A stretch of 64,000 nucleotides of DNA. It comes from an uncultured virus (IMG/VR IMGVR_UViG_3300002175_000051) (taxonomy: Duplodnaviria > Heunggongvirae > Uroviricota > Caudoviricetes). Made by a program: the position numbers and the translations under genes. Numbering within the stretch: the stretch's first letter is position 1; each line of letters starts with the position of its first letter. The notes below the pieces were generated by a model. The model searched no databases and had not been told where the DNA came from. It saw nothing but the letters and a program-made list of their open reading frames with translations. This document shows, piece by piece, positions 3,001 to 52,969 of the stretch. The DNA is taken from IMG/VR virus record IMGVR_UViG_3300002175_000051; one strand, 5' to 3'.

Positions 3001-4291
3001 ATTTTTTGGCGTTGTCGTCTATTATCTGCTTTATTATTGTGATCGCGGACGCCACCGCCTGGTTCGTGGTAACGGCATTTAAATTAAACACTATGTCCCC
3101 GGCCCCTATGAACTGGGATGTCGGCATGTTATAGTTGCTCATCTGTATATCCGGGATAATATTCATCAGGGACACGGCAATATATTGTATCTGCATGTCA
3201 ATTGCCGGGAGTACCCCTTCTTTTATATTGTCCTCTTCGTCGTTAAACAGCGTTAAAATATCCTCGTAATAGTCATGGAGGCTGCTTGGCTTTATGCCGC
3301 TTTCCAAAAGCCGGTCGATAATTTCACTGTTTAAAATTTGAATGGATATTTCTTTGCCGATAGTGTCCGAATGAATATTTTTCTTTACCGGCTCAAAATA
3401 AACAATGCTGTCGCGTTCCGGGCTGTCTATTATAAGCTGCTGGTAATACCACCTGAAGACATCCCAATCAAACATATCGTGGAACGAGTAGCTTATATTT
3501 TCAATGTAAGGGTCAACGTTAAATTCCCTGAGTACAAGCTCTACCTGTAGGCAATAAGGGAAATCCGGGACAGTGGATACGTTCATTGTGATAAGCGACA
3601 CATTCCATATCCCATATTCAAGGTTTAAAAGCTCGTTGCGTATAGGCAAAAAAGGCGTCCTTTTAAACTGCGCAAGGAGGCTCCTGAACCCGTCGATATA
3701 ATATTCCATGTCAGGCTGTCTGGTATTGCCCACTCTATTGGACCACCATGCGTTTCCCGTGGCCGCAAGTGAAAGGGAAAGGGCGGGGTCGCTGAACGGC
3801 GATTTTACCCTGTATCCGTTTATATCGTCCAGCCCGTTGAACCATAGCGGTATATGTATCGTCCTTGTCGAGTAGCCGTTGTTCTTTTTAATCGAGTTGG
3901 CCTGCCTAAGCCCGATTACGCTTTGTACGTTGGAAGACGTGGTAACGGATATGGAAAGCGGGGGGACTGTAAACTTACAGTCCCCTATGCGCATCTCGTT
4001 CATGTCCGGGACCCTGAAAGGCATAGGGACATCATTGTCGTAATCCCTTCGGGAATAGGAAAATTCAGATCCGATGTTATAGAATTTTCTATAAAGGTCG
4101 TCAATCTTCGGGGCCTCTATAGGGAAGCCGTCCTTTAAGTTATACCGGACGCCGTTTAGGTAAACGTCCAGCTTAGACTTGTCCCATTCTTTCCTTTCAG
4201 CTTCCGCCGCTTGCTTTCGGAGTTTTTCCTTTTCTTTCTCAAGCCTCTTTTGTTCCCTTGCCGTATATGTTTGAAAGCTTTGGCCCGCCAT
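1..4291 (-). CDS. Large baseplate hub/tail-associated protein, truncated by the left window edge (>1429 aa)
   Basis: Not in the ORF track because it is incomplete. ATG at 4291 after GAAGGA gives MAGQSFQTYTARE..., and the frame matches at the left edge (...GVIDYLMDRN); spot-checked, not every codon read. Contains hub-like segments (LEIEVHQSRE..HTATILLSN; RVHIRIGYG..TVFNGYITQI) and lies downstream of the tail genes. Confidence 0.7.
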   Translation of the reverse strand, partial: MAGQSFQTYTAREQKRLEKEKEKLRKQAAEAERKEWDKSKLDVYLNGVRYNLKDGFPIEAPKIDDLYRKFYNIGSEFSYSRRDYDNDVPMPFRVPDMNEMRIGDCKFTVPPLSISVTTSSNVQSVIGLRQANSIKKNNGYSTRTIHIPLWFNGLDDINGYRVKSPFSDPALSLSLAATGNAWWSNRVGNTRQPDMEYYIDGFRSLLAQFKRTPFLPIRNELLNLEYGIWNVSLITMNVSTVPDFPYCLQVELVLREFNVDPYIENISYSFHDMFDWDVFRWYYQQLIIDSPERDSIVYFEPVKKNIHSDTIGKEISIQILNSEIIDRLLESGIKPSSLHDYYEDILTLFNDEEDNIKEGVLPAIDMQIQYIAVSLMNIIPDIQMSNYNMPTSQFIGAGDIVFNLNAVTTNQAVASAITIIKQIIDDNAKKYKAQYFVGFCKIVNDIFQLFGVNYVFIETINIDTVPDFPNVYTIAMKLISYEPTQRFKEGLYAFNPFTVKDGDQDVLNPDTSEQVIWKTYMGIQTKARQDCYAEQKLLNVNLYQDLELPSYKTFDKVLKAINAFRAANKIYGGLRETRAANGACYVDPDFYIGYSILDTSGFEKLPEAESVLQLFKFPEKDLNIRYEKEKRKQTVSPLFLKALGADCIIQSPSEYLTSTERPLPVFQFVAERMCHDMIKYGKRGKLNRAFPTYLISFIDEGPSWLDGRKMWGNYYITTSALEIEVHQSREYPNHTATILLSNTFNNLYNTNWKDQLVNPDYYKKFDFGSPNLDRKMLENHMVLLESVKLEDGVRVHIRIGYGNNAALLPTVFNGYITQINTDIVMQIVCQSDGMELINNIFTEDKEDAHTGTFKYGREPANVIGHVMTAISNKWSNLIESAWGENSKFGIEHFGIASGVTKATRTDRQRDSDQDVMNRNLIFAQMEWYKEYDVIKNIYHANNGEVKSLSENWRNSNEIFGFELPDSQNSNQWLSAIFPPADIIQFFMINKDGADKNLCVYLNNKTPWDVFQETTSVIPDFICYPHYHHFESRIFFGSPFWNVKYKHSLGKVTPDILDQDLYFQFGTAPEKLFFTDREPQIGKTYKNNNSNMHVFEHVKPFSQFHILTSGTSIIDNQIVASADAIKATACICSYVQGSTVKMGSVVYADNTINPSLQKTRNIDSSVYTNIPLVSGVIEDGVRYVGGALTGQTPTEDNIRQMSTRYLQNSLSMMYQNPIIVLGAAEIKPHDVIYIVDNFADVIGLAEVRQVIHTLNIQGFATSIYVDLCTFQAINETGKSTVYANLLKIAGAFSALESFKTNVEYAGALDSLNDYYDKFIVKYNHLIRDASQMAITGYNAFIVSKSIFVSIKFGRWAKLWGNVKNAGTNVVQAIKVFKTAKSLKGALNTIKSGGGIFAGTGIGLVAGIVLFAVGIALDLLLDGVIDYLMDRN

Positions 4292-4336
4292 AAGCATTCC
4301 TTCTTTAAATTTAAATTTCTTTTTATTATTAATAAA

Positions 4337-7300
4337 TTAAATAATGTTTGAAATTTTATTTGAAATCCACCTGTCGTTAATGGCCGATCTTTGATTGACA
4401 AATGTTATGTTGCTGTTCCCGTCCATGCCGGCTTTTTGAAGCACGGTGTCCAGCTTGCTTTGGCTGTCTTCCTGTTTAGGCGAGGTTGCCGAAACGGAAG
4501 CGTTGACTTTATTGTTGTTGCGCATATATACAGTTTTGCCAAATGCCCCGCCCATAGGCGTAATATTTGAGGACGATTGTCCTTGCTGCCCGGCAACCAG
4601 GCTTTGGCTTTTTGGCTGCTCCTGCGGGCTGTCGGCTATCAGAGGGCCTTTGCCGGTCGAATTTGCCCCTATGATAAAAGCCACTACGCCAATCGCGCCG
4701 GCTGCCAGTAATAATGATTTGCTGTCAAATTTGGCGGCAGGCAATGAATCCAGCGTATCCGCCAATTGGCGCTTCTGCATACCCAAGCTGCCGTAAGCCC
4801 TGTTCAAAGCGCTTTGCCTTGCCGCCGGCGCGGCAGCTTTAGGGAGCGCCTCAAACTGTTTGGCGATTTCTTCGGCATCGCCCATCCTTAAATTTCTGCC
4901 TATCGAATCGATTGAACCAAGGAATGCGCGCTGCCAATCGTCAGCTTGGTCAAAAGCCGTACGCTGCGCGTTCGACAATTTTGCCATGTCGAGGTTGGCG
5001 GTTATTATCCTTTTTGAAGCGGCCGCCCGCGCCCCAGCATTTTTAAGGTTTTCGTTAAACTCGGCAAGCATTCCGCCTGTATCGGCATTGTCGTATAGGA
5101 GCCCTTTGGCTTTTAATATACCGATGTCGCGGTTAAAATTAACCATTGCTTGCCCGGCCGCGTCCAACGATCTAAAAGCAACGTCGTCAATAGTGTTTAA
5201 AGTCAGCCGCCTTGCCGTTTCCGAAACGGTAGGCAGCAGGCCCATGTCCTGTTTTATCAACTGTTCCGCGTCCGCAAGCATTTTAGCTGTATCGCCATAT
5301 GCAAGTTTCCTGCTCCTTGTCATGGCGTCGTCGAAATACTGGTTCAGAAGGGCCCTGTTACCCGGCGAATAAATATCCTCAAGGGTCCGCATGAAGAATC
5401 GGCTTTGATCCGTAAGGCCATCGACTAGGTTTGCTTCTTTCTCGTCTATCTGCCGGAGTATTCTCCTTACTTGCCCAAATGCCTCTTGGCGTTTTGCTTC
5501 TGACCCCATATGGAGGTTATTGATGGCGTCCCTGTATGCTTCGCCCCAGTGGGGCCCTATACTTTTGCCGACATGCTTGGTTGAGATAATATTCTGCTCT
5601 ATGGATTCAAGGGTATCCATGAAACGGAGCTTATTTAAGCCTTCTTCCGTATTGGTCCCGAAAATGCTTATGGCAAGCTCGCGGATGTTATAGTTGGGTA
5701 TGCTGGCAAGGCCTACGTTTGGCGTCAATGTGCCGTGTACTTGGGTCGCGAGTATTTTTTTGTCGCTCATGTATAAAGCGAACTCGTTTGCCCATTGTGC
5801 GTATGTCTGGCCTTCAGACTGCCTCCATTTAGGCAGATCTTTAAGCCAGCCTTCTTCTGTTTCCCTGATAAGGCGTGATACGTCGAAAGCGCTTGCCGTA
5901 GGATCTGTCAAACCCATTTTTACTTTGCCTTCAAGCACATCCGCATAGGCGGAAAGGTTGCCCCTTGCTTGCAAGTCTACAAGCGTCCTGAATTGATCCC
6001 GCAGATCAGGGCTGCCCTGCTTCTCGAACACTACGCCGAATATGTCCGTTATGTCGCCGTCCACGTCGCCCGCAAACTGCTTCATGGTCATGGCGAGGGA
6101 ATACATCGTATTGCCCTCTATGCCGCGGTCTAAGAGTATCCTGGACGCCTGCACGGACTTGGCGCCTATGACAGGGCGCCGCGCTGTAATGCCGAACGTG
6201 CCGTGCTGTTCCAAAAACCTAAGGTTCTCCTCTACGGCCAAGAAATCTTTTGAGAATCCCATGTCTTCGAATGTTTTGAGGCCTACGAAAGTAAGGTTGG
6301 GTATCTCCGCTTGCCCTTGTTTGTTGATCGTCATCCATTTGTTTATCTGATCCGCCAATTTAACATTGGTAGATTCAATCGCTGTTATATCAACACGATT
6401 GTGTTCGGCGTTCTTCCTGAGCAAATCAGCTATTTCGGACTGGTCTGTTATCCAGGCTTCGGATCCGGCTATTTTTAAGCGTAAATCAGGCGCTATACCG
6501 CGGTATGACATGCGGCCTGACTGCGCAAGGCGTTTGGTCCGCATTATTTCCCTGGCTTTGTCCTTGTCGGCATAGGCAGTTGTAAGCGCCTTCATGTATG
6601 AATCGTATGCTGCGCCTACCCGCGATACCTGGGTATCGGGTATTAGGCCTTCCTCGTATAGTTCAAGCTCGCCCAAGAACCTGTTCGCGGCAGTTTCAAT
6701 TTGTTTTGAGAATACCTCTTCCCCAAGGGTGGCCTTGGATATATTCGGGATATAAACGCGGTCTATATTTTTGCCGCCGTACCTAAAGCCCCGGGATAAA
6801 GTAATTTCAGCTAAACCGTCGTCAGTGCCGAAGAGCGAATATTTGAGCATATCAACGGATGAAGTAGGCGGCAATATAGTGGTCCTGGCCGTTTCTACCG
6901 ATATGTCGCGGAGGTTGCCAAAGTCAATCTCAACGCCTGATTTTACGCCGGTAAACACTTCCTTGTTGGCAAGGAGCGCTTTTTGCAGATTTTGATAGTC
7001 TTTTAAAGCATTGTTTTTATTAAGGGTCAGATCTTCTATCTGATCGGATTGAAGGAAATTAAGTATGCCCATGCGGGCTTCGTTCATCCGGCCTATTTCC
7101 GCTTTGCTTAATTCTGTGTCCGTTATGATTCCGAATACCTGCTCTTCGCGGGCAGTCCATTTTAGGCCTTTCTCGAAACTCAGGGACTCGATATTGGAAC
7201 CTTGGTTTATAGACAGCACGGCAACACGGCTGTCGTCCATATAGCTGATAAAATTCCTGGCGCGCCGCATCTCTTCCGCTGACCCGCTTTTTACGGCCTG

Positions 7301-10300
7301 CGCCATCGCGTCGGACTTTACTTTGTTTATCACGTCTTGCGTGGCCTGGGCAAACTCGGCCGGCCTCTCGGAGAAATAAGTAAAGGCGGACGATTGTCCA
7401 GTTCCGGCCCTTTCCATAAGCCTTTGATCGCCTGTAAGGCCCCTGTTGTATATTTCGTCCATTGCGTCGCTGAGTATGGAACGGTATGCCCCGCCTTCGA
7501 ATGTGGCGGCCTTAAATAAATTGCCCGTTATAATTTCCGACGTGGCTTCATGTTTCCCCAGTTCGCCAAATGACGAATATAAACCGATTTCGATTATGTT
7601 CCCATAGGCGTCCCTCGGGGCTAAATGGTATTGGGCTATCCTTTCCTGTATGTGGCTGCGGAGTACGGACGCCATGGATTTTTCGGCGCCGAGCATTGCT
7701 TTAATCCCGGCTTCTTCCTTTGTATTTACAATGCTCTCTAAAATTACTCGGCCGTCAGTTACGCCGCCGACTATCAGGCCTTTGCTTCTTTCAAAATCAG
7801 AGAGGCTGGAGAACGCGCCTTCTTGGATGTCAACGCCTAAATTGCGGAGCTGTGCTTCCGATAAAATCTTCCCGGTCATTGCTTCGGTAAAATTAGCGCT
7901 GCCAATCCTGAACTGCCTTTGTGAATACGGGGTTATTTGAAGCTTGTTCCCTAATATGCCGGTAATCCTTCCTGTAACCCTGTCATTCCGGATTACCATG
8001 TCTTCCGCGTCCAGGGATGTTACTATGTCTTCGCCTTTAAATACAGACCGGCCGATTAGGTTGTCTATGTCCTGCTGCGTTAAATTATCAAGCTGCTTTT
8101 GCGTAAGCTCTATCGAGATATGCTGGTTCATGCCCAACAGGCGCTGATCCGCAACCCTTTGCGACATTATGCTGGCGCCTTCGTGTACGTTAAATAAGGA
8201 CACAACGCCGAAGTCTTTGCGCACCTGATCCAGCAACTCCGCGCTTATATTTTTAGCGTCGCTTACGATACCCATTTCTACTATGAGTTTTTTAAGATCG
8301 CCTTCCCGGGTTAGGTCGGTAAATATATCAGCGTTTTTCCTAAACGCGTCTTGGATCTCGGTATCGCTGATAGCCATTACCGTTGTCAAAAGCTCGCCAG
8401 TGCCGCGCCCCATCAAGGATTTAGTGGCTTCGTCCAGGCCTGACTTTGCGGCAAAATCACTTACGATTTGGCTCAATGCCCTTTGGTTGTCCACTTGTTT
8501 TTTCGTCAATAAAAAATCGTTTAAAAATATATTTGACGATTCGCCCTGAACCTGCTCTATATTAGCCCGCAATAGGGGAAGCCTCTGCTGGCCCAAGACC
8601 GGGCGTTTCATGGAGTTATACTCGGCAAACGCATAATTGTCCGTAACGGCCGCGGCGGAAGCTATGCCGTCGTCCACATGCTGTTTTTTATTGTGGAACG
8701 AAAGGAGCAGTTTGCCATTATCATCCCTGACCATTTTTAACGCGCCCTCATAGCCTTCGCGGATATACCCCTCCGGGCTTATTTCCGCATGGTAGTCCAA
8801 AAGCCTTTCAAATAGGCCCTGGCCCTCAAACATGTTGCGGTCAAGGGCGACTTTTATGTTTGGGTTGGAGGCAAGGTTAAGATCCTTCCTCCTTGAAACA
8901 GGGTCATAAACCATGGACTTGCGCCAAACCCTCCGAGTAAAGTCTGCGCGCTCCGCCCTTGTCAGCCCGTCCTGCCCTTCCGTAAACAGATCCTCAATCG
9001 TCTCTATAAGCCGCCTTGCGTCGCTTGTAAGTCGGTTGGGCTCCTGCCTTTGGATTTCAAATAAATTGTCAATCATCGAGGCAGCCGCCGGCATGAATTT
9101 GACCTGATCGGCAAGCTCGTTTAAATGGCCGAACGTCCCCCTGACATACTGGTTGTTTATCATAAATTGCGTGGCGTCAATGCCTGATGTCTGGCTTATA
9201 ATGGAGTTTGCTATGCGGTTTACCCGATGCGTGGCGGCCAGCCCAAAACCGCTTTCCAATTGGGACACGATATCGTTCTGGATGGCCTTTGCGGCTTCGC
9301 CGTTTGCCCTGCGCAGGGCGCTTATCATCTCCATTACCGTATCGACCGGGGCCAGCACCAGCTCCCCGGTGCTAGGTTTCACATATGTGTTAAAGCCTGA
9401 CCGGTTCTGGCGTATCATATTGCCCCGCTTTACAAACCCGCCGAATGTATCCGTCCGGTTGACAAGGGTAGGCAGCTTATAAGTCAGGACATTGTCGCCG
9501 GCCTGGCTGATGTCCTGTGTTATCTGCAAATTGGACAGGGCGTTTTTATATTTGCTGCTTCCTATGGCAAGGAACACGTCGTCAGAATCAATGTCCTTAA
9601 AGACGGTAAATGCCGCGCCCTCTTTAAAATCGCGCATTATCCCGGAGCTTCCATATAAGACGCCGCTCAGCTCGTCCAAATGCTTTTGCTGCCACCCTGT
9701 TAAATTCTTAATCTCCTCGCCAATTATGCCTAAGCCCAATTGGTTGAAGCTGGGGCGGAACCTTGACTCCATAGGCAATGAGTCCAGCAGGGACGCGCTG
9801 GGGGCGTTAGCCACGAAGCTTTGCGCACGGCGGAGCTGCGCGTTAATCTCTTTATACGCGTCCTGCGTAAACATAGATTCACGGAATAATTGGCTGTAGC
9901 TATACGTATTTGCCGACAGGCTGTTTAAATTAAAATCCGAGCGCCTGCCAAGCCTGCCGGAAAGCCTGTCTTTATTGGCCATTAATAATTTTGCGAGTTC
10001 CGTCTGGTTCTCATAGACAGAAAATTTAATGTTATAGTTAAAGCTCCCTGTCTTTATCACGTCTTGTTTTTCAAGGTTGCTGACTAAATTCATAAAATTG
10101 AAATAGTCTTCCTGCTTGGATTTGTTGCTTCGCACCCTTTCGCTGTAGAGTACGCCAAGGCTCCTTTTGGCCGTATCAATATTTGATAGATTAAGGCCGA
10201 TCACATTCGTTGCGGATCCGCGCCTGCCATGGTCAATAAATATCGTTTCGGCGTCCCACAGATACCCTTCGTTTGCGCCTAGCAACTGGTTCCTCCCAAG

Positions 10301-12583
10301 GGCGGCGCCGCGCAACACGCTATCGGTCAATTCGTTTGTCTGGACGCCAAGGCGGCTGGCTACCTCCTGTTGCATAAGCCTGTTGGCGTTTACATTGCCG
10401 ATGAAATTTTGGACATAGGCGTCTTCCTGTCTGCGCAGCATCCTTGTGCGGTACAGGTTCGCTTCATACCCTTTTTGATAATCACTTAAGCCTGAAGGCA
10501 TATTGGCTTCAAGCTCGTTTGTGGCGTTTAAAATCTTTTTTATATTTTCCGTTTGGATATCATAAGTCTCGCCAAGGATATTCCTTAAGTGATATAAATT
10601 CTCAAACTGGGCCATTCTTACGTTGCCGGCCTTATTGCTGCCGACGAGGTTTTTTATCCCTTCTTGTGAAACCGCCCTGTTTTTATATAAGGACGAAAGG
10701 TATTCGGACACGCTAATGTCCCTGTTGCTGCTTAATGAAGCCTCCTGGGCGGCCGCACTGGCTTTGCCGTACATTTCGTAATAACGGCGCATTTCGTTAA
10801 AGCCGCCGGAATAGCCGGAACCGGGGGTTTGCGTAAACCCTTCGTACAGCCTGCGCGCACGGTCGGCCTGCCGGACGCCTTGCGTGGCCCGGAGCATATC
10901 GTCCGACACTTCGTTCCTGATATACATCTGGCCGAATTTTTGCAGCGATTCCCTGCCCAGCTCAGACTCGCCCATCGGGAGGGCCGTCTGGTTTAATGCC
11001 CGGTAAATAAAACTCCGGTTGCCGTCCGCGTCTTCGAATATATTTAGGCGCAAAGTTTTGTCGCTGTCGCTGAGCCTGTAATATTCCTTTATTTTTTGTA
11101 CGTCCACGCCGCGGATGTTTGACGCTATATGATCGAGCGACACGTCTACGGAGTTTACAAGCTTCATGGCGCTGCCGCGGCCTATCGTATAACCCCTGTA
11201 AAACTGCGGGTCCGGACGATTGTCCGCATCGACGCCGACGAATGCGTCGAGCAGGCCGGTAGGGACGGCTTTGTCAAAATAATAGGTTCCGCCGACGCGT
11301 AAATCGAATGTTTTGTAATTTTGGTTTATGCGTTCTAATGTAGTGTCGGCTAAGCTTGTGCCGAAAAATTTCATCATGTTGCGGTTAATATCCGCTATAG
11401 CCGAATGGCGTGCGCCAGCGTCCCGTATGCCTACAAACGAGTCTTGTATGATGTCATTCAAGGCGTCAAGGGTCATTGCGCCATGCCCCTGTATCTTGCC
11501 CTGCATGGTAGATATAATGCTCTGGGCATGGTTCGAATCCATATGCCCAAGGCGCACCTGGTTGTTTATGGATTCCCGTGCGACGTTTTGCAGCTCGTTA
11601 ATATAGCCCGTAAGATCCCCTGACCAGCCGGCGCGGATGAAATCCAGCGTGTCCGGGAGCATCTTTGAATCAAAGAAATTTGTTATGCCGGCATTTTCCA
11701 AAAACCTTCTTGCCAACGGCATATCAAAATTACGGACATTATGGCCTGAAATATATGTAGGGCTATGGGGGTCAACGACTTTCCTTAAGAGCTGTTTGAC
11801 ATTTTCAGAATTTTCGTTTTGGATCTCCCCGAGCCAAGCGCTGTTTTTGAGCCCCTGTTCCGCAAGGGTTATCGAAGTCGGGCTGCCGGCTATATTCAAT
11901 TCGCCGATGCCGTAATACTGGGTACCGTTATAGCTCCTGTTTACAAATACCTTATCGGTGTCGCCGGAAAGCATGACAAGCCTGGACATTACATTCCTTT
12001 CAGCAGGGGTAAGGCTGGAGAGGGCCTGTTCCGTATTGGCTAACGTACGCGCTTTGTCTATTATCTTTCTGATTTCATCATATTCGTCCGTTACCCCTAT
12101 AATTTTCCCGTTGAGATCCCGTTTATATTGTTCGATCCCAAGCGCTATATTAATTTCGTCGGTGGCCCGCAGCATCCTGGCAGGCGCCCCAGATCTCCCG
12201 GCATTGTTTTGTACCTGGTATTTAACTATCCCTAATTCAGTGAGTACGCCCTTTTCCGTGGCAAACGTTTCTGTGTCCAAGCCGTAAAAAGTGCCGCCTT
12301 TTTGCAGAACATCCTGGTTAAAGCGGTTGAACGTTTCGTATGTAGAAGCAATATCCACATTGGGGTTGCTTGAATTTTCAATCATCGTAACCATGCCGGG
12401 CGCGACGTTGAAGACATTTGAATTTTCAAAATTGGAGCCATTGGCCTTTAAGACAGCGCTAGTCAAATTTGTTTTCGTCTCATTGTCGGCATAATTAGAA
12501 AGCGCATGGTTAAATGCGCTTGAACTGGATCTTTTAGATTTGTTCCCAATGCCTACGCCGACGCCCGTTGTTATAAGATCCAT
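4337..12583 (-). CDS. 2748-aa virion protein: N-terminal DEDDh exonuclease plus putative single-chain double-psi-beta-barrel RNA polymerase
   Basis: DEDDh motifs GLDTET, GHNVRNFD and HSAIAD. Beta-like two-lysine motif GIKAMLGAEKS at ~7680-7712. Beta'-like RRP at 6173-6181 and DVDGD at 6053-6067. C-terminal hydrophobic helix. Confidence 0.7.
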   Translation of the reverse strand: MDLITTGVGVGIGNKSKRSSSSAFNHALSNYADNETKTNLTSAVLKANGSNFENSNVFNVAPGMVTMIENSSNPNVDIASTYETFNRFNQDVLQKGGTFYGLDTETFATEKGVLTELGIVKYQVQNNAGRSGAPARMLRATDEINIALGIEQYKRDLNGKIIGVTDEYDEIRKIIDKARTLANTEQALSSLTPAERNVMSRLVMLSGDTDKVFVNRSYNGTQYYGIGELNIAGSPTSITLAEQGLKNSAWLGEIQNENSENVKQLLRKVVDPHSPTYISGHNVRNFDMPLARRFLENAGITNFFDSKMLPDTLDFIRAGWSGDLTGYINELQNVARESINNQVRLGHMDSNHAQSIISTMQGKIQGHGAMTLDALNDIIQDSFVGIRDAGARHSAIADINRNMMKFFGTSLADTTLERINQNYKTFDLRVGGTYYFDKAVPTGLLDAFVGVDADNRPDPQFYRGYTIGRGSAMKLVNSVDVSLDHIASNIRGVDVQKIKEYYRLSDSDKTLRLNIFEDADGNRSFIYRALNQTALPMGESELGRESLQKFGQMYIRNEVSDDMLRATQGVRQADRARRLYEGFTQTPGSGYSGGFNEMRRYYEMYGKASAAAQEASLSSNRDISVSEYLSSLYKNRAVSQEGIKNLVGSNKAGNVRMAQFENLYHLRNILGETYDIQTENIKKILNATNELEANMPSGLSDYQKGYEANLYRTRMLRRQEDAYVQNFIGNVNANRLMQQEVASRLGVQTNELTDSVLRGAALGRNQLLGANEGYLWDAETIFIDHGRRGSATNVIGLNLSNIDTAKRSLGVLYSERVRSNKSKQEDYFNFMNLVSNLEKQDVIKTGSFNYNIKFSVYENQTELAKLLMANKDRLSGRLGRRSDFNLNSLSANTYSYSQLFRESMFTQDAYKEINAQLRRAQSFVANAPSASLLDSLPMESRFRPSFNQLGLGIIGEEIKNLTGWQQKHLDELSGVLYGSSGIMRDFKEGAAFTVFKDIDSDDVFLAIGSSKYKNALSNLQITQDISQAGDNVLTYKLPTLVNRTDTFGGFVKRGNMIRQNRSGFNTYVKPSTGELVLAPVDTVMEMISALRRANGEAAKAIQNDIVSQLESGFGLAATHRVNRIANSIISQTSGIDATQFMINNQYVRGTFGHLNELADQVKFMPAAASMIDNLFEIQRQEPNRLTSDARRLIETIEDLFTEGQDGLTRAERADFTRRVWRKSMVYDPVSRRKDLNLASNPNIKVALDRNMFEGQGLFERLLDYHAEISPEGYIREGYEGALKMVRDDNGKLLLSFHNKKQHVDDGIASAAAVTDNYAFAEYNSMKRPVLGQQRLPLLRANIEQVQGESSNIFLNDFLLTKKQVDNQRALSQIVSDFAAKSGLDEATKSLMGRGTGELLTTVMAISDTEIQDAFRKNADIFTDLTREGDLKKLIVEMGIVSDAKNISAELLDQVRKDFGVVSLFNVHEGASIMSQRVADQRLLGMNQHISIELTQKQLDNLTQQDIDNLIGRSVFKGEDIVTSLDAEDMVIRNDRVTGRITGILGNKLQITPYSQRQFRIGSANFTEAMTGKILSEAQLRNLGVDIQEGAFSSLSDFERSKGLIVGGVTDGRVILESIVNTKEEAGIKAMLGAEKSMASVLRSHIQERIAQYHLAPRDAYGNIIEIGLYSSFGELGKHEATSEIITGNLFKAATFEGGAYRSILSDAMDEIYNRGLTGDQRLMERAGTGQSSAFTYFSERPAEFAQATQDVINKVKSDAMAQAVKSGSAEEMRRARNFISYMDDSRVAVLSINQGSNIESLSFEKGLKWTAREEQVFGIITDTELSKAEIGRMNEARMGILNFLQSDQIEDLTLNKNNALKDYQNLQKALLANKEVFTGVKSGVEIDFGNLRDISVETARTTILPPTSSVDMLKYSLFGTDDGLAEITLSRGFRYGGKNIDRVYIPNISKATLGEEVFSKQIETAANRFLGELELYEEGLIPDTQVSRVGAAYDSYMKALTTAYADKDKAREIMRTKRLAQSGRMSYRGIAPDLRLKIAGSEAWITDQSEIADLLRKNAEHNRVDITAIESTNVKLADQINKWMTINKQGQAEIPNLTFVGLKTFEDMGFSKDFLAVEENLRFLEQHGTFGITARRPVIGAKSVQASRILLDRGIEGNTMYSLAMTMKQFAGDVDGDITDIFGVVFEKQGSPDLRDQFRTLVDLQARGNLSAYADVLEGKVKMGLTDPTASAFDVSRLIRETEEGWLKDLPKWRQSEGQTYAQWANEFALYMSDKKILATQVHGTLTPNVGLASIPNYNIRELAISIFGTNTEEGLNKLRFMDTLESIEQNIISTKHVGKSIGPHWGEAYRDAINNLHMGSEAKRQEAFGQVRRILRQIDEKEANLVDGLTDQSRFFMRTLEDIYSPGNRALLNQYFDDAMTRSRKLAYGDTAKMLADAEQLIKQDMGLLPTVSETARRLTLNTIDDVAFRSLDAAGQAMVNFNRDIGILKAKGLLYDNADTGGMLAEFNENLKNAGARAAASKRIITANLDMAKLSNAQRTAFDQADDWQRAFLGSIDSIGRNLRMGDAEEIAKQFEALPKAAAPAARQSALNRAYGSLGMQKRQLADTLDSLPAAKFDSKSLLLAAGAIGVVAFIIGANSTGKGPLIADSPQEQPKSQSLVAGQQGQSSSNITPMGGAFGKTVYMRNNNKVNASVSATSPKQEDSQSKLDTVLQKAGMDGNSNITFVNQRSAINDRWISNKISNII

Positions 12584-12595
12584 ATGATCACCCGT

Positions 12596-15500
12596 CTATG
12601 CAAATAAATTAGCGCGTTTATTCTTTATATACCTTTCTATTTCCCTGTATTGGTCATATTTGAGGTTCATGCTTGTATCGTCCTGGTGCGACGGCAGGGT
12701 GTTGATCGCAATATCCATGTACCCCTCGCGTGAAAGGAGTTCCGTCAGCCGCCGGCGTACGTCGTCCGCCTTGGTCTTATACGAAATATGGGGCATGGGG
12801 ATGTTGGTCTGCGCTGCGGCGTCCTCATCGCCTTGCCAAATATTAAAATCAGACCTGGACAGGGACTCGTCCATCTTGACAAGCTTGATTTTAACGTCCT
12901 CCATATTGACTTGCTCCTGCCATCCTATCCAGTCCTCGCCCGGCAACTGATGCTCCATGAAGTATTTGACCGGGTCCAGCTTGTCCTCTACGGGGAGCCC
13001 CCATAGGGACTCAAGCGGCCGCCTTAGGTAACGGGGCACTAGCTGCAATATTTCGCCGCGCTCTTCTTCCGGCGCGTCTATAAAATGGCTGAAGTATAGT
13101 TTCTCCGTCTTTGGCAGCGCGGCCATTATATTCTCCACGGGGTCGCCGCGGTCATAGCCCTGCATGGTCTGTTCGGACTGCTGGTAATAGGCAAGCGCCC
13201 TCATGGCGTTTTGCGGCAACTGGTCTATCTCGCGGTAATTATTAATTATATCGATTGCCTTGTTCGTATTTCTCGCTGCTTCTTTCTCGGGCTTGGGGAA
13301 AAGGTTCAAAAAGCCGCCCTTCATGGATTCCTTGCCTTCAAGGTAGGCCATTTTGTTTACTTCTTTTTGCCCGCCGAACTTGATCCTTCTCTTGGTTTCC
13401 TTCAATGCGTTTGCCGTTGCTTTGCGTTTTTGCCCTTCCTCCCGGCGCTGGCGTATATATTCGCGAACGTCAAATTGATCCTGCTCTAAAGCCTGATCGG
13501 CATAATAGTTATAAAGCCTTTGCGCTTTGATATATTTAAGCATATCGACGTATTCGTTTATCTCGCGCTCTTTTTGGCGGCGCTCCGGTATCCAGCGCTC
13601 ATTGTTTGCCCTTTGGCGCAGCGCCTTGTTGCCCTGCATGACGGCAACCGCGGAAGCCGACACGATAGCCCCCGCCGCTTTCCCAAGGCTGCCGCGGCCA
13701 AACATTGAGCCTACCCACGCGCCGATGGCTATACCTACCACGGGGTTCCTTACCGCGAGGCTTTCATAGCCGGGGATTAGATAATCTTTTATGGGGTTGT
13801 CCCAAACCTGAAAATCTTTCGAAAACAGATGCCGTCTCTTATAAGACTCCAAAGGCGAACGGACTTGAAGCAGCTTGGTATGGAATATCGTGTCCATATG
13901 GGAAAAGCGCTCCATGGCCGCGCCCATCCGGATCTCGGAAGGCGTGAACCGTGCGTGGACTGACGCCGGGGAATAATCGTCTTCCCGTTCCTTTCCATAT
14001 CCTTCGTCCAAAAGCATTTTATTTACATTGACGCTGCCCCTATAGACGACAGCGGATATAGTTTTATAAGTATCTTTATTCATAACGTTTATAGGGTCGG
14101 GATCATAGCCGATAGTGAGCCTTGCGCCCGCATAAAATATCATGCCCGTCCTTTCCTCGTCTTCTTTCAGCAGGTTGATCCCCGCGAGTTTGACGGGGGT
14201 GTCGCCTAGCTCTTTCGTTAAAAACATATCTGAATCAAGCATTTTGGTTATTGTCACGTCACGCTTAGTTATATTGGCCGTTTTGAATCGGTAGTCATAT
14301 AAACGCAGCGGGTTCTTCTGTTCGCTTACCTGCTTGAGTATCTGCTTGTATTCGGCTTTTTGCTGTTCATCCATTTGGATGCCGGACATTTGGGACTTAT
14401 AAAATTTAAATTCATCGGAATACGGCGCAACGTCCGCAAGTATCTTAAAACGGTCAAAATACGGGTACATGTCGCCGGGCGTTATCTCGCCGGAGTCAAG
14501 TTTCGCTTGTACCCCTGCCCTCGCGTCCTGAAGCTTCGATATTGTTTCGCGGTAGAGCTTAGGGTCGTAGGTAAACCTTACGGTATATTCCCTTTCAGGC
14601 GGCTCCTGTTTAAGCCTGCGGAAGAAGCCAGTTACGGCGCCGGCGTTATCATCAAACAAATATCTCGTAACTTTCTGTGTATCGCGTTTAGTCATGAAAG
14701 TACCGACTTTGTTTAAAAATGTTTCCTCTTGTTTTTCCGCCTCGCCGCGGCGAATCTTATAATGGATATAGCCAACTTTTTCACCCATCTCGTGCAGGTA
14801 CCAATTGACCTGCGCCTTATGCTCGTAAAAGGCCTCGCCCGTCTTTTTGACCTCGTCAAACTTTGCCTGGTTGACCGTCTTAAGGTCCACGACGGCCCTG
14901 CCGGTAGGGGAGCTGTCGTCGAAGACCAAAGCGTCATACCAGCCTTCTATGCGCAGTTTCCTGTCTTCTATATGACCTTCGGTGTTTATCGCTATGCCGC
15001 TCTGTATAAGCTCCTGTTCAAATTTTTCGTGTTCTTTGGTGCCCATTTCCGTTATGCGCAATACGCGTTCCGGCATAACGTCGTCCTCGTTCATTAAGTG
15101 CGCCATTATCTCATCTTTTGTTTTGCCAAGCGAAGACGACCCGATTTGCATAAGCGTAGGGTCCTTAAGGTTATTAATGCGTTCATAGGCAGCCCCTGGC
15201 AGCCTTATCTCGCCCATCTTAATTGTTGTGTTGTGAGTAACAAAACCCATAACGCTGAATGTGTTATCACTATCTACTTCAAATCCATATACATAATCTA
15301 TATCAATTTCTTTTATTGATTTAATGGTACTATAAATGTATTGACTATCTGTCCATGATTCAACATGAGGGATATTATTATTGATATAGTCAAAATTTAT
15401 AAGTTTTTCTTTATAAAGTAATCCTGATAAATTATAATTCCTGAGATGAATAGAGTGTATTGTTACAATATAGCAATCCCTTTGATTATGTTTTTTGTAT

Positions 15501-18500
15501 TGTGCTGGTATACCGCTTTCCATAGAAAGACGATATATATCTTGCGCTAATAATTCATTTGCAGATGACATTATAAGTAATCTATTTTTTTCTATGTAGC
15601 CATCACCAAGGCAATACGCTAAAATAGCTTCTCTCTTTATGTCATTTGGTGCTTCATAAAGAATTTGGGGAACACGTTTATCATATAGATTTCCAGGTAT
15701 TATATAATCAAATATTCGTGCTATTTTTGCGTTATTGATAATAACTTCTGTATTATTGTTTTTTATATCCAATGAGATATTTTGATTAAAGTATTTTTTA
15801 AAATATTCTTCTAATTTTGAAATTATATCATTTTCGGTAGAACCTAAAGAAAACACAAGCCTTACCGGTAAATTGTCTTTCCCTTTTTTCCCTGTAGAAC
15901 CTTCAGAAAGATATAAACCTATCAACCATGCTGTTTCTTTATTAAGTGGCAAATATCCATTTATAAAATTTGGTTTCCATTTGTCTTTTCCATAAATTAA
16001 ATATTCATAATAAATTTCTGTTTGAAAATTAGAGTAAATAGGTATTGGATAGACAACATAATCAGTTTTAGGGTTAATATCTTTTGCTTTTATAAATTCT
16101 ACTTTGTCATGCCATTTTGGGTTACAGTATTTATATGTATCGCAAAAACCATTGATATTTCTAATATGTGGTCTGCATATAGATGAAGAATTAAGAGAAC
16201 ACCTTCCTGTAATTCTTTTGATTAAAATAGGATGATCTTCTGAAAATATGAAATCTATTTTCTTATCTATCCCTGCAACCTCAAATTTATATGCTTTTTC
16301 ATTAGGTAATAATGGTCTTTTCATAATATTAGTAATAGGCATACGATTCCCCTTATGAGTTAATATAATATCGCCTTTTTTTACATCTTTCGCTATTATA
16401 TACCCATGGGTTGTGTCTATCAACGTATCTTCTGAAACACAGTACGGGTCCCCGCGCCGGAAATTATAGAAAGCCCCGTCGCCGGGCAGCCATGCGGGCA
16501 TTTTATTCAGTATTGGGTTATAGGACTGGTCCTCGTACCTTGTTTTTGGTATGAACCTGCGGAACACTTCGGAAAGCTCCCCGCCAAGGCCGCCAAGATC
16601 CCGGCTCCAGAAGCTGTGCTTAAAAGAGCCCAAAGGCGTTGCGGATTCTATTGTCTGGGTTTTGAGGAAAGGGTCCTCGGCCGCCTGGCTTACTATGAAC
16701 CCGTACATGCCATACATATCCGTCCATTGGCGGTATACTTGGCTAAGCGTATGCTGCGCCCCATAAGGGGCCTTTGTCTGTATTAGGTTGTTGGGGTACA
16801 CGGAAATGCTTGTGCCGGTCGGGGCCCCCGGGCCCATTGGCGCTTCCCCGGTTTCCCTTTGTGTTGCCATGGCAGTCTGCCCTTCGGGCGATTGGCCTGA
16901 CACAATCGTGGACATGTTCATGTCCAATCGCCCGGCCATAAAAAAATCCTCTGAAAAAGGATCGCGGAGCCTCATTGCGTCCGGTTTTGTTTTTTCAAGG
17001 GACTTGCTCTTAATCTGCCGGTTCAATTCTTCCAAATCAAATACAGTGCCTGATCCGTATAGCCGCTGACCGCCTGATTTTGTCGTCAGCACGGCATATT
17101 CGCGCCCGCTTCTTGCAGCGCCGGGCTGTATGCCCAGCCTCCCGCCTTTTGCTATAGGCGACGCTACGCCATGCATACCGGCCGGTATGGATCCGGCGCC
17201 TTGCACGAACCCGATTTCAGGCACATATACAATTGGCTCAGGTTTTTGCCCCGCAGAGGACAATTGTCCTGACGTTCGCCCCGCAGGCGACGTTCGCCCA
17301 GCCGGCTGCCCTTCTTCCGCCGCGCCGTAGTTTGGGCCCTGCCAATACTCCAAGTGCATTTTTCTTGCCGGCTTTATTATTTTGCCTACAGTCCCGGCTA
17401 CAATCGGGCCTATGAACGGTATCTCTTCGCCGAAAGTAGATGTCATCATATACGGGCGGTCTTCATAATGCTTGCGTTCATAATGATAGCGGTCAAAAAT
17501 GAAATGGTTGAGCGGTGCAAGGGGGTAACGCGGGGTAGGGAACCAGGCGTTTTTAAAATACTCTTTTTCCGATCCGTATAGCGTGTCCGTATACTGCCAG
17601 TTGGATTTGGTCTCGCGGTACCAGTTGTCGCGCCAGTAGGATATACGCCCGCCCGAAAAGGGGGTGTTCCCGAGCCCCCAGTACCGGCCTTTCCGGATTG
17701 GGTCTTTTCCGTACAAATAATAGTTTTCTTTTTCTTCCCGCGTCTTGGACATATCCAAAAAACCAAGCATAGGAATTTCGGATATCTGCTCAAAACCAGG
17801 CATTAGCTTATTCATTCTTTTCGCCCGTTCGGTCAGGCCAATCCTGTCCTTTAATCCGTGCCAAGCCAGGTTAGTGTTTACGCGGGCGTCGGCTATAACG
17901 TTTTCCGGGCGCTTCCCAAAAAAGTTCTCGGATTCGAAATTTATATAGTCCCAAGCCTTAAGCCCTAAATAAACAGGCAAAAACCGTTTGATCAACAAAT
18001 TTGCGACAATCGACTGGGCAGAGCCAGTGCTTTTTGTGCTGAAGCCGAGCCCAAAAGCGGCGAAAAAATTACTTATGCTTGTTGTCCTTGAATAAAGCTC
18101 TAACCCAATAGTGGTAACGTTATGCAAATTATCCGCGCCAAAATGCTCACCGGCCTGCTTTACCCATCTAATGCCGCTCCTGCGCATAGCGTCGCCAAAA
18201 GCCTTGTCGATGGCCTTTTCGATGCCGCCCCTGCGCCCTGCGGTAAACTGGCCTAAAAGGTCGGGGAGGTCTGCCTCGCGGCGGAACACGTCTAACGGGG
18301 TTACGCTTTTTTTTATGCCAATATAATTGGAAACGGCATAGCCGGGCGCGTTCCTGCCATAATCATAAAAACTGAAAGCCTGGTTTATTGTCCGTTTGCT
18401 TATTTGCTCCGCAAATTTTAAACGGTCCATTATAGGGTCAGTGATAAGGTGCGGCAGCGATGTCATATCGTCCAGCTCAAACCCGGACATCCTGGATTCC

Positions 18501-40721: not shown

Positions 40722-40740
40722 GTTTACTCACTCCTTGTTT
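40566..40740 (+). ncRNA. Putative omega RNA (reRNA) of TnpB with flank-derived guide
   Basis: Structured region downstream of tnpB (hairpin GGGGCG-CGGTCAAT-CGCCCC) up to the right end. The guide would start at 40722; the 5' boundary is unknown. Confidence 0.6.
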
Positions 40741-52897: not shown

Positions 52898-52932
52898 AGG
52901 CATGGGTGACGTTAAACTATGCCTTTTTTTTA
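52898..52932 (+). terminator. Intrinsic terminator
   Basis: AGGCAT...ATGCCT followed by a T-run. Confidence 0.6.
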
Positions 52933-52969
52933 TTGCTTTAAAAATAAAATTATGAAAGGTGTGTTTTTA

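What the first reader, a model, noticed from the sequence alone, without database searches (positions are those of the whole stretch)
11388..12290. DEDDh 3'-5' exonuclease fused N-terminally to the candidate RNA polymerase
Seen: all DEDDh motifs appear intact (LDTET, HNVRNFD, HSAIAD). I know of no characterised two-barrel RNA polymerase with a DnaQ-like fusion. Inference: it could proofread or trim RNA, or resect the injected DNA end to create single-stranded template.
Basis: partly seen in the sequence, partly recalled or inferred. Interest (0 to 1): 0.72.

Follow-up and report, generated by a model that had tools for sequence, protein, structure and literature searches.

The report
Exonuclease domain in giant phage tail protein
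A 2,748-residue protein of a jumbo phage, sitting where the tail tape-measure gene normally lies, starts with a DnaQ-like 3'-5' exonuclease domain and carries an RNA-polymerase-like catalytic barrel far downstream, a combination not described in the papers searched.

Summary
The motifs are real. LDTET, HNVRNFD and HSAIAD lie at residues 102-106, 281-287 and 393-398 of ORF 4337-12583 (minus strand, 2748 aa).

No HMM library recognises this protein directly. Five distant full-length relatives (17-27% identity) keep all DEDDh residues. A profile of the family matches, at hhalign E 9.5e-8, the equivalent domain of Moorella phage MTATph1. That domain passes Pfam RNase_T's curated cut-off.

A second AlphaFold model is partly confident. 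Its alpha/beta core best matches Exonuclease I, PolC exonuclease, DinG and REXO2 (Z 6.1-7.2).

The "RNA polymerase" part is only partly supported:
- One beta'-type barrel (KR..SGR, RxP, invariant DxDGD) lies about 1,700 residues downstream.
- A second barrel was not detected.
- A clear QDE-1/YonO-like RNA polymerase is encoded separately at 52919-56737.

By synteny the protein occupies the tape-measure slot of 0305phi8-36-like jumbo myophages, between the gp145-like protein and the hub. Relatives there are annotated as virion proteins. Two relatives keep the exonuclease but lack the barrel, so the exonuclease is not simply an RNAP accessory.

Most likely it is an ejected tail-lumen protein whose exonuclease acts on DNA 3' ends at entry. 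This is a new variant of the tape-measure-fused virion RNAP theme (P23-45 gp96).

The parts
4337..12583 (-). ORF for P0001, 2748 aa: a giant protein in the tape-measure slot
   Evidence: ORF list and translation. An identical gene lies on a second metagenome contig, L003. It sits between the gp145 homologue and the hub/lysin gene, as gp146 does in 0305phi8-36.
11354..12322 (-). DnaQ-like DEDDh exonuclease domain, residues about 88-410, with inserts between the motifs
   Evidence: hhalign of family alignment A6 against the MTATph1 exonuclease domain: probability 94%, E 9.5e-8, 155 columns. That domain passes Pfam RNase_T. ESM Atlas lists RNase_T clusters at 0.89-0.90. VIA-align Z 6.1-7.2 to ExoI, PolC exonuclease, DinG and REXO2.
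12266..12280 (-). Exo I motif LDTET (D103, E105)
   Evidence: Invariant D and E in A4, A6 and A12.
11723..11743 (-). Exo II motif HNVRNFD (N282, D287)
   Evidence: Invariant N and D in all alignments. Profile hits to the exonuclease region of family-B polymerases and to DEDDh chains.
11390..11407 (-). Exo III motif HSAIAD (H393-x4-D398)
   Evidence: Aligned with the Hx4D of relatives in A4 and A7 and shifted in A8, A11 and A12. It is preceded by a 'MTLDAL' helix, as in the relatives (read).
6044..6556 (-). beta'-type double-psi beta-barrel-like module, residues about 2010-2180 (K2017-R2018..S2022-G2023-R2024; R2135-x-P2137; DVDGD 2173-2177)
   Evidence: Invariant S2022, G2023, R2135, P2137, D2173, D2175, G2176 and D2177 in A7. 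hhalign to E. coli beta' 333-465, E 0.01 and 0.0075. hhalign to P23-45 gp96 733-784, E 0.004. Pfam RNA_pol_Rpb1_2 below cut-off in relatives.
5567..5590 (-). IISTKHVG motif (residues 2332-2339), a possible start of a bridge helix
   Evidence: The I-S-S/T-K motif is kept in all members. It is the second, collinear hhalign hit to beta' 762-773, but at E 0.2 only. Weak.
4664..4717 (-). Hydrophobic, membrane-type segment (residues 2623-2640) ahead of a conserved C-terminal tail
   Evidence: Regular-expression scan. The C-terminal region of P0003 matches the gp146 C-terminus at E 2e-4.
12596..19843 (-). Upstream neighbour P0002 (2415 aa): homologue of the virion protein gp145, carrying an intein and a Cas4/RecB-like nuclease domain
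   Evidence: BLASTP to gp145 E 7e-171. Pfam LAGLIDADG_3 and Hint hits. PHROG Cas4-domain exonuclease E 1e-8 to 8e-10.
2..4297 (-). Downstream neighbour: hub/lysin giant protein, which runs off the window; 2074 aa on L003
   Evidence: phrog_20474 E 1e-209. Glucosaminidase domain on the full copy. Corresponds to gp147.
52919..56737 (+). Separate QDE-1/YonO-like two-barrel RNA polymerase (1272 aa, GADFDGD at residue 630)
   Evidence: Pfam RdRP PF05183 E 2e-15, 56.9 bits against a cut-off of 23.8. Motif found.

Best explanation
P0001 is the tape-measure-slot giant protein of a roughly 200 kb jumbo myophage distantly related to Bacillus phage 0305phi8-36.

Domain order:
- a low-complexity N-terminus
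- a DnaQ-like DEDDh 3'-5' exonuclease domain (about residues 88-410) with family-specific inserts
- a long middle region with no recognised family
- a beta'-type catalytic barrel with DVDGD (about residues 2010-2180)
- a hydrophobic segment and a conserved C-terminal tail

Shown:
- the domain's homology to RNase_T-type exonucleases, and conservation of its five catalytic residues over very divergent relatives
- the gene's position in the tail module
- co-occurrence of the exonuclease and DxDGD modules in six proteins

Inferred:
- The protein is packed in the tail and ejected ahead of the DNA, like tape-measure proteins and like the tape-measure-fused RNAP of P23-45.
- The exonuclease is active.
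- It acts on DNA 3' ends at the entry site. Most likely it resects the leading end of the incoming linear genome, exposing single strand for terminal-repeat annealing and/or for a virion polymerase that prefers single-stranded template. It is probably not proofreading RNA.

Rough odds:
- DEDDh-fold domain: 0.9
- catalytically active: 0.7
- virion or ejected protein: 0.75
- beta'-like polymerase barrel: 0.75
- DNA-end processing as the exonuclease's job: 0.4
For: Homology:
- hhalign of A6 (5 family N-termini including P0001) against the MTATph1 domain: probability 94%, E 9.5e-8 over Exo I to Exo II.
- BLASTP of the KLEB27-3 N-terminus against that domain: E 2e-11.
- That domain scores 24.2 and 25.5 bits against the RNase_T cut-off of 24.
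- P0001 against KLEB27-3 gp034: E 4e-6. P0001 against P0003: E 1e-40.
- Profile A4 against PDB sequences: 54 of 56 hits at E<=10 are exonuclease-bearing chains, best polymerase hit E 0.0024.
- Full-length profile A7: 33 of 33 hits are family-B polymerases (29), RNAP beta'/gamma (3) or a DEDDh chain (1).
- ESM Atlas: several RNase_T clusters at 0.89-0.90 among the top 30.

Structure:
- Second AlphaFold model has pLDDT 77-94 over residues 80-210 of the model.
- In an all-against-48,161-chain search, the 5 rows aligned to model residues 31-246 are ExoI, PolC exonuclease, DinG, REXO2 and one uncharacterised protein, Z 6.1-7.2.

Catalytic residues are invariant.

Synteny and virion status:
- The order tail chaperonins, gp145-like protein, this gene, hub holds in 0305phi8-36, WH1, KLEB27-3 and L015.
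- gp146 is noted as found in virions by mass spectrometry. WH1 gp095 and KLEB27-3 gp034 are annotated as structural.

Independence from the barrel: gp146 and MTATph1 CDS0027 have exonuclease motifs but no RxP...DxDGD.

Precedents:
- P23-45 gp96 together with the non-virion RNAP gp64 (PMC10770324, passages read).
- crAss-like gp66 transcribes single-stranded DNA far better than double-stranded DNA (bioRxiv 10.1101/2020.03.07.982082, passages).
Against: - P0001 itself gets no exonuclease or RNAP hit in Pfam, NCBIfam or PHROGs, even at E<=10.
- hhalign of the family against E. coli DnaQ, RNase T, ExoX and Orn aligns only Exo II, at E 0.14.
- The first AlphaFold model was useless (pLDDT 43). The second has mean pLDDT 55.8, with the Exo II strand and the whole Exo III half below 50.
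- Foldseek gives 0 matches at E<=0.001, and its top rows are Hsp70 ATPase domains.
- VIA Z of 6-7 lies in the range the tool calls middling, and most listed rows are generic helical matches.
- The AlphaFold alignment contained the RNase_T-like MTATph1 row, so the model is not fully independent of that link.
- The Exo III register is ambiguous.
- There are no virion, expression or activity data for this phage.
- The substrate (DNA or RNA) and the target (phage end, host or defence nucleic acid) are inference only.
- The head-proximal placement of a tape-measure N-terminus is recalled knowledge, not tested here.
Confidence: 0.6

Rival explanations
1. The exonuclease serves the polymerase module of the same protein. 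It would trim or proofread the 3' end of the nascent RNA, or rescue backtracked complexes, as nsp14 ExoN does for coronavirus RdRp (the ExoN comparison is recalled).
For: The two modules co-occur in all 6 distinct full-length family proteins. DEDDh enzymes include RNases such as RNase T, Orn and REXO2; REXO2 is among the structural matches.
Against: About 1,700 residues separate the modules. The exonuclease persists in gp146 and MTATph1 CDS0027, which lack RxP...DxDGD. No known two-barrel RNAP uses a DnaQ-type proofreader (recalled). The closest sequence and profile hits are DNA-side enzymes: PolB and PolC exonuclease domains, ExoI, TREX1-like.
Confidence: 0.12
2. The exonuclease is an ejected weapon or counter-defence. 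It would degrade host nucleic acids or defence molecules at the moment of entry, for example host DNA ends, retron or CRISPR RNAs, or small signalling oligonucleotides. It could work together with the Cas4/RecB-like nuclease of the neighbouring giant protein.
For: Two adjacent tail-module giant proteins each carry a nuclease domain. The exonuclease is independent of the polymerase barrel in two relatives. Orn/REXO2-type enzymes degrade short oligonucleotides, and REXO2 appears at Z 6.1.
Against: There is no hit to any defence or counter-defence family; the PADLOC library was not searched. Copy number in a tail lumen is low (recalled: a few copies per virion), which fits poorly with bulk degradation. 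No direct evidence.
Confidence: 0.15
3. The domain is a degenerate, catalytically silent DnaQ-like fold kept as a structural or nucleic-acid-binding part of a tape measure.
For: Large inserts lie between the motifs. No direct HMM hit. The catalytic half is modelled with low confidence. 0305phi8-36 gp146 has an A in place of the F/Y of Exo II and about 475 residues between Exo I and Exo III, and is not hit by PF00929.
Against: All of D, E, N, D, H and D are kept at 17-27% overall identity across six to eight proteins. That is hard to explain without selection for catalysis.
Confidence: 0.1

Closest known systems
Thermus phage P23-45 gp96, a tape-measure protein fused to a virion two-barrel RNAP (PMC10770324)
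   Same: Both are giant tail tape-measure-slot proteins with a DxDGD catalytic motif. Both phages also encode a separate non-virion two-barrel RNAP (gp64 there; ORF 52919-56737 here). hhalign aligns the DxDGD-bearing strand region at E 0.004.
   Different: gp96 belongs to a siphovirus, and its RNAP is N-terminal (DFDGD at residue 779). Its paper mentions no exonuclease (0 occurrences). Here the phage has a tail sheath, the barrel is C-terminal-proximal, the N-terminus is a DEDDh exonuclease, and the second barrel is not detected.
DnaQ-like DEDDh exonucleases (Pfam RNase_T PF00929: DNA pol III epsilon, PolC exonuclease, ExoI, ExoX, RNase T, Orn/REXO2, TREX1)
   Same: It has Exo I D-x-E, Exo II N-x4-D and Exo III H-x4-D. 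It links by profile to a domain that passes PF00929. Its core matches ExoI, PolC exonuclease, DinG and REXO2 structurally.
   Different: It lies inside a 2748-aa tail-module protein. It has about 60-100 extra residues in each inter-motif segment, including a conserved 'LT..ER....L.LYSGD' insert. PF00929 does not recognise it directly.
Bacillus phage 0305phi8-36 gp146, 'hypothetical tape measure protein' (PMC2147016)
   Same: Same gene slot between gp145 and the gp147 hub. It is a virion protein by mass spectrometry according to the record's note. The C-terminal tail is similar (E 2e-4 with P0003). It contains DEDDh-like motifs.
   Different: No BLAST similarity over the rest of the protein. 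Its exonuclease-like motifs are internal (about residues 1217, 1445 and 1690). It has no RxP...DxDGD. The paper describes neither feature in the passages read.
crAss-like phage phi14:2 gp66 and N4 virion RNAPs
   Same: They are large virion-packaged polymerases delivered with the DNA. gp66 prefers single-stranded template, which gives an exonuclease a plausible job.
   Different: They belong to podovirus-type virions, are not in a tape-measure slot, and have no exonuclease domain in the passages read (0 occurrences). No sequence similarity to gp66 was tested or found here.

Membership tests
DnaQ-like DEDDh 3'-5' exonuclease (RNase_T, PF00929) | Exo I: D-x-E on the first strand | tested here: met
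   D103 and E105 are invariant in A4 (7 sequences), A6 (5) and A12 (6).
DnaQ-like DEDDh 3'-5' exonuclease (RNase_T, PF00929) | Exo II: N/D-x3-4-D at the start of a helix | tested here: met
   N282 and D287 are invariant in A4, A6, A7 and A12. The model has strand 218-222 followed by helix 228-238.
DnaQ-like DEDDh 3'-5' exonuclease (RNase_T, PF00929) | Exo III: H-x4-D (the 'h' subtype) | tested here: met
   H393-x4-D398 is present and aligned with the Hx4D of relatives in A4 and A7. The register is shifted in A8, A11, A12 and local MAFFT runs, so the column assignment is not robust.
DnaQ-like DEDDh 3'-5' exonuclease (RNase_T, PF00929) | Family HMM match above the curated cut-off | tested here: not met
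   P0001's N-terminus gets no PF00929 hit at E<=10. It is met only transitively: MTATph1 scores 24.2 and 25.5 bits against a cut-off of 24, and family to MTATph1 is hhalign E 9.5e-8. P0024's N-terminus scores 14.2 bits, E 0.065.
DnaQ-like DEDDh 3'-5' exonuclease (RNase_T, PF00929) | DnaQ (RNase H-like) fold | tested here: inconclusive
   Model pLDDT is 55.8. VIA Z is 7.2 (ExoI, 117 aligned, rmsd 3.4), 6.8 (PolC exonuclease, 106 aligned, rmsd 3.0), 6.2 (DinG) and 6.1 (REXO2), covering Exo I to Exo II only. Foldseek gives nothing at E<=0.001.
DnaQ-like DEDDh 3'-5' exonuclease (RNase_T, PF00929) | Metal-dependent 3'-5' exonuclease activity | not testable with these tools
   Needs a biochemical assay.
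Two-barrel RNA polymerase | beta'-type barrel with the metal-binding DxDxD motif | tested here: met
   D2173, D2175, G2176 and D2177, plus R2135 and P2137, are invariant in A7. The pattern R.P.{25,45}D.D.D is present in P0001, P0003, P0008 and P0009 and is read in P0024.
Two-barrel RNA polymerase | Significant profile similarity to beta'/Rpb1 domain 2 | tested here: inconclusive
   PF00623 scores E 0.0043-0.015 (16-17.8 bits against a cut-off of 25.3) in 3 of 6 members, and not in P0001. hhalign to E. coli beta' 333-465 gives E 0.01 and 0.0075, against best controls of 0.089 and 0.059.
Two-barrel RNA polymerase | Second (beta-type) barrel supplying basic residues | tested here: inconclusive
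   hhalign of the 760 residues upstream, and of the gp145-like family, against rpoB, gp96 and the window's RdRP-like protein gave nothing better than reversed-sequence controls.
Two-barrel RNA polymerase | RNA synthesis on a DNA template | not testable with these tools
   Needs an assay.
Tail tape measure protein | Gene lies between the tail chaperone genes and the baseplate hub | tested here: met
   Same order as 0305phi8-36 orf143/144, 145, 146, 147, and as in WH1, KLEB27-3 and L015. The neighbours are homologous.
Tail tape measure protein | Present in virions, with length scaling with tail length | not testable with these tools
   Only annotation notes for relatives are available: gp146 by mass spectrometry, WH1 gp095 and KLEB27-3 gp034 as 'structural'.
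Tape-measure-fused virion RNAP (P23-45 gp96 type) | Partner non-virion two-barrel RNAP gene in the same genome | tested here: met
   ORF 52919-56737 hits PF05183 at E 2e-15.

The most novel reading that the evidence does not exclude
The two catalytic modules of this ejected tail protein work as one entry machine. The N-terminal DEDDh exonuclease is taken to be the part of a tape measure nearest the genome end in the virion. It would resect the leading 3' end as the DNA enters, and the beta'-type DxDGD polymerase module would then copy the exposed single strand. This would be a self-priming 'exonuclease plus barrel polymerase' start of infection in jumbo myophages. A bolder variant is that the barrel module is a PolD-like DNA polymerase with a DnaQ-type proofreader.
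Probability: 0.15. Interest if true: 0.85.

Novelty: new variant of a known kind. Interest (0 to 1): 0.62.

Why it matters
Tape-measure proteins were long seen as rulers and channel formers. P23-45 showed in 2024 that one can carry a virion RNA polymerase.

This family extends that idea in three ways:
- to contractile-tailed jumbo phages of Bacillus and uncultured hosts
- by adding a second enzyme, a DnaQ-type exonuclease, to the ejected protein
- by showing the exonuclease is the more widespread of the two modules in this lineage

If the exonuclease is active, it would be a nuclease delivered into the cell ahead of, or together with, the genome end. That bears on several open questions:
- how large linear phage genomes are started, protected or circularised
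- how virion polymerases that prefer single-stranded templates obtain them
- what the 'extra' mass of giant virion proteins is for

Cultured relatives exist (KLEB27-3, WH1, 0305phi8-36), so the question is directly testable.

Tried and rejected
Direct family searches of P0001 and its parts found nothing relevant:
- Pfam, NCBIfam and PHROGs.
- PDB sequence searches gave only sub-threshold Exo II hits.

Homologue hunts were almost empty:
- Word-index protein searches: self only, or nothing. The 'longer' setting reached only 2055 aa, so it could not see family members.
- Exhaustive representative search with the N-terminal 461 aa: only P0003 plus a low-complexity hit, P0004.
- tblastn of P0001 against phages: no match at 1e-5.
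- IMG/VR scans: one new contig, L015 (L016 is the same contig).
- Metagenome scan: the same phage again, L003.
- Genome-contig scans: nothing.
- The window's own assembly is not held, and the nearest record G001 lacks the gene.

Other tests:
- hhalign against four E. coli DEDDh enzymes: Exo II only, E 0.14.
- The first AlphaFold model (2 sequences) was unusable.
- Foldseek on the second model gave no row at E<=0.001. Its top rows are Hsp70/ParM ATPase domains, with RNase T (5 rows), PARN and TREX1 among the 50 listed at TM<=0.2.
- Search for a second, beta-like barrel in the upstream 760 residues and in the gp145-like neighbour: nothing above controls.
- Paralogy between the C-terminal module and the window's RdRP-like polymerase: hhalign E 0.22, not supported.
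- ESM Atlas on the C-terminal 501 aa: the top 30 clusters are unnamed and viral, and the nearest named cluster is PF05183 at 0.87. This is a lead only.
- MAFFT input variants to fix the Exo III register: none aligned it.

Literature:
- No paper held 'KLEB27-3', 'vB_BceM_WH1' or 'MTATph1'.
- The 4 papers holding 'tape measure protein', 'exonuclease domain' and 'phage' were seen only as a listing, and their titles do not concern such a fusion.
- The search of earlier findings returned nothing.

Full report
**What is at the coordinates.** The finding lies on the minus strand inside ORF 4337-12583, a 2748-residue protein, P0001.
- LDTET at residues 102-106
- HNVRNFD at residues 281-287
- HSAIAD at residues 393-398

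The quoted span is one base out of frame. An identical gene sits on a second metagenomic contig.

The window is part of a jumbo myophage:
- It carries terminase, portal, capsid, tail sheath and tube genes.
- The protein's own record notes a longest contig of 201,725 bases.
- Its terminase is 46% identical to that of Bacillus phage 0305phi8-36.

**Is the N-terminal region a DEDDh exonuclease?** Direct searches fail. Pfam, NCBIfam and PHROGs give nothing for P0001 or its N-terminus, apart from a sub-threshold DNA_pol_B_exo1 hit on Exo II at E 0.01-0.02. PDB sequence searches give only E 0.06-0.13 hits of the Exo II stretch to small DEDDh-type chains. A loose ordered motif pattern turns up in 104 of 2000 shuffles of P0001, so the motifs alone prove little.

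The case rests on relatives. An exhaustive search of 1.84 billion representatives found one homologue, P0003, 3111 aa. Working through the phage's known kin gave more:
- KLEB27-3 gp034 (P0008)
- WH1 gp095 (P0009)
- the Edson homologue
- an IMG/VR protein, P0024

At 17-27% identity to P0001, all keep D-x-E, G-[HYQ]-N-x3-[FY]-D and H-x4-D.

The same gene slot in Moorella phage MTATph1 holds a more compact version of the domain. It passes Pfam RNase_T's curated cut-off, at 24.2 and 25.5 bits against 24. A profile of the five N-termini that includes P0001 matches that domain with hhalign probability 94% and E 9.5e-8 over 155 columns, from Exo I to Exo II. KLEB27-3 against MTATph1 gives BLASTP E 2e-11.

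Independent leads agree:
- 54 of 56 PDB hits of the seven-sequence profile are exonuclease-bearing chains, best polymerase hit E 0.0024.
- The ESM Atlas places several RNase_T clusters at 0.89-0.90 in the top 30.

**Fold.** With two sequences AlphaFold gave pLDDT 43. With six sequences it gave 55.8, with residues 80-210 of the model at 77-94, but with the Exo II strand and the Exo III half below 50. Foldseek found nothing at E<=0.001.

An all-against-48,161-chain VIA-align search gave five rows covering model residues 31-246:

| Chain | Z | Aligned residues | rmsd |
|---|---|---|---|
| Exonuclease I | 7.2 | 117 | 3.4 |
| PolC exonuclease | 6.8 | 106 | 3.0 |
| uncharacterised M. tuberculosis protein | 6.7 | not recorded | not recorded |
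| DinG | 6.2 | not recorded | not recorded |
| REXO2 | 6.1 | not recorded | not recorded |

The other listed rows are generic helical matches to a low-confidence region. These Z values are in the range the tool calls middling. The alignment also contained the RNase_T-like MTATph1 row. I therefore score the fold test as inconclusive but pointing the right way.

One weakness remains. P0001's HSAIAD aligns with the relatives' Hx4D in A4 and A7, but not in A8, A11, A12 or any local MAFFT run. P0001 has a roughly 40-residue insert just before it.

**What the rest of the protein is.** By gene order, P0001 sits where 0305phi8-36 has gp146, the 'hypothetical tape measure protein':
- Upstream is P0002, 37% identical to virion protein gp145 (E 7e-171).
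- Downstream is the hub/lysin giant.
- WH1, KLEB27-3 and the IMG/VR contig have the same order.
- The records call the relatives virion or structural proteins; gp146 was identified by mass spectrometry.
- P0001 has a hydrophobic segment at residues 2623-2640.
- P0003's C-terminal tail matches gp146's C-terminus at E 2e-4.

**The polymerase claim.** All six full-length family proteins carry K-[RM]-x3-S-G-R, then R-x-P, then DxDGD, which is DVDGD at 2173-2177 in P0001. The supporting scores are modest:
- hhalign aligns this block to E. coli beta' 333-465, covering both halves of its catalytic barrel. E is 0.01 and 0.0075, against best controls of 0.089 and 0.059.
- hhalign to P23-45 gp96 733-784 gives E 0.004 in one run and 0.054 in the other.
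- Pfam RNA_pol_Rpb1_2 hits three of six members below cut-off, E 0.0043-0.015, and does not hit P0001.
- The full-length profile's only non-exonuclease PDB hits are three RNAP beta'/gamma chains at E 1.5-2.1.
- A conserved I-S-[ST]-K motif gives a collinear but weak second hit (E 0.2) near where I recall the beta' bridge helix begins.

No second, beta-type barrel was found in the protein or in its gp145-like neighbour. A beta'-type barrel is therefore likely. A complete two-barrel RNAP is not shown.

The window also encodes a clear QDE-1/YonO-type polymerase at 52919-56737 (PF05183, E 2e-15; GADFDGD at residue 630). It corresponds to the orf99 described for 0305phi8-36 (PMC2147016, passages).

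**Are the two modules tied together?** 0305phi8-36 gp146 and MTATph1 CDS0027 (the latter split by a transposase gene) carry exonuclease motifs in the tape-measure slot but lack RxP...DxDGD. In this lineage the exonuclease is the more widespread feature. This argues against a role only as the polymerase's proofreader.

**How it most likely works.** Shown here:
- a conserved DEDDh active site in a tail-module giant protein
- a beta'-type DxDGD block downstream in six proteins

Inferred:
- The protein is carried in the tail and ejected at infection, like tape-measure proteins and like P23-45 gp96. That paper proposes that gp96 transcribes pre-early genes at the entry pore (PMC10770324, passages).
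- I recall that the C-terminus of a tape measure sits at the tail tip. If so, the N-terminal exonuclease would lie next to the genome end and follow the rest of the protein into the cell just ahead of the DNA.
- My best guess (odds about 0.4) is that it resects the leading 3' end. The exposed single strand would serve terminal-repeat annealing and/or a virion polymerase. crAss-like gp66 transcribes single-stranded DNA far better than double-stranded DNA (bioRxiv 10.1101/2020.03.07.982082, passages).

The rivals are RNA 3'-end trimming for the polymerase, an ejected anti-host or anti-defence nuclease, and a silent structural fold.

**Novelty.**
- The P23-45 paper has no occurrence of 'exonuclease' or '0305'.
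- In the passages read, the 2021 jumbo-phage survey credits 0305phi8-36 only with the YonO-like enzyme (PMC7824862).
- The 2007 paper treats orf146 as a tape measure only.
- Searches for tape measure together with DnaQ, DEDD or exonuclease-domain terms, and for the three phage names, found no description of such a fusion.

These searches cover open-access papers only, and no supplements were opened. I rate this a new variant of a known kind: a tape-measure-slot virion protein carrying a polymerase barrel plus a DnaQ-type exonuclease, in contractile-tailed jumbo phages.

Noticed in passing
window 15230-16441 (-), inside ORF 12596-19843: P0002, the gp145 homologue, carries an intein: a Hint domain plus a LAGLIDADG homing endonuclease at residues about 1135-1538, running from C...HN to a following T. 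0305phi8-36 gp145 aligns across the junction without it. GC content drops to 0.40 in the 14001-16000 bin.
   Followed up: partly
window 14753-15169 (-), P0002 residues 1559-1697: A Cas4/RecB-like (PD-(D/E)xK) nuclease domain by PHROGs (phrog_1706 E 8e-10, phrog_1990 E 1e-8) lies directly after the intein. Two adjacent giant tail-module proteins therefore each carry a nuclease domain.
   Followed up: partly
window 52919-56737 (+): A 1272-aa QDE-1/YonO-like two-barrel RNA polymerase (Pfam RdRP E 2e-15; GADFDGD at residue 630). It is probably the non-virion polymerase, the counterpart of 0305phi8-36 orf99.
   Followed up: partly
window 39480-40565 (+): A transposase ORF (phrog_506, E 1e-44) sits on the opposite strand in the head module, between the ORF taken by synteny as the decoration-protein gene (37967-39334) and the one taken as the protease/scaffold gene (40724-42187).
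   Followed up: no
window 23859-26240 (+): A 793-aa LuxR/MalT-type regulator (GerE E 1.5e-10; MalT-like TPR) is inserted on the opposite strand between the tail-tube paralogues.
   Followed up: no
window 20532-21161 (-): An FkbM-type methyltransferase (E 8e-8) lies among the small genes between the tail tube and the giant proteins, where tail chaperonins are expected.
   Followed up: no
L004 9070-16426 (Moorella phage MTATph1): The tape-measure-slot gene appears interrupted. CDS0027 (1309 aa, with the RNase_T domain) is followed by a transposase and then by a 313-aa ORF with a membrane-like C-terminal part. The same 1309-aa protein also occurs on a 2.98 Mb Moorella contig, so the phage is also present as a prophage.
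   Followed up: partly
L002 6624-14237 (0305phi8-36 gp146): The published 'tape measure' has internal YLDIETTG (about residue 1217), GQNVADAD (about 1445) and HLARAD (about 1690) motifs. It looks like a stretched DEDDh-like domain. Neither Pfam nor the record's annotation recognises it.
   Followed up: partly
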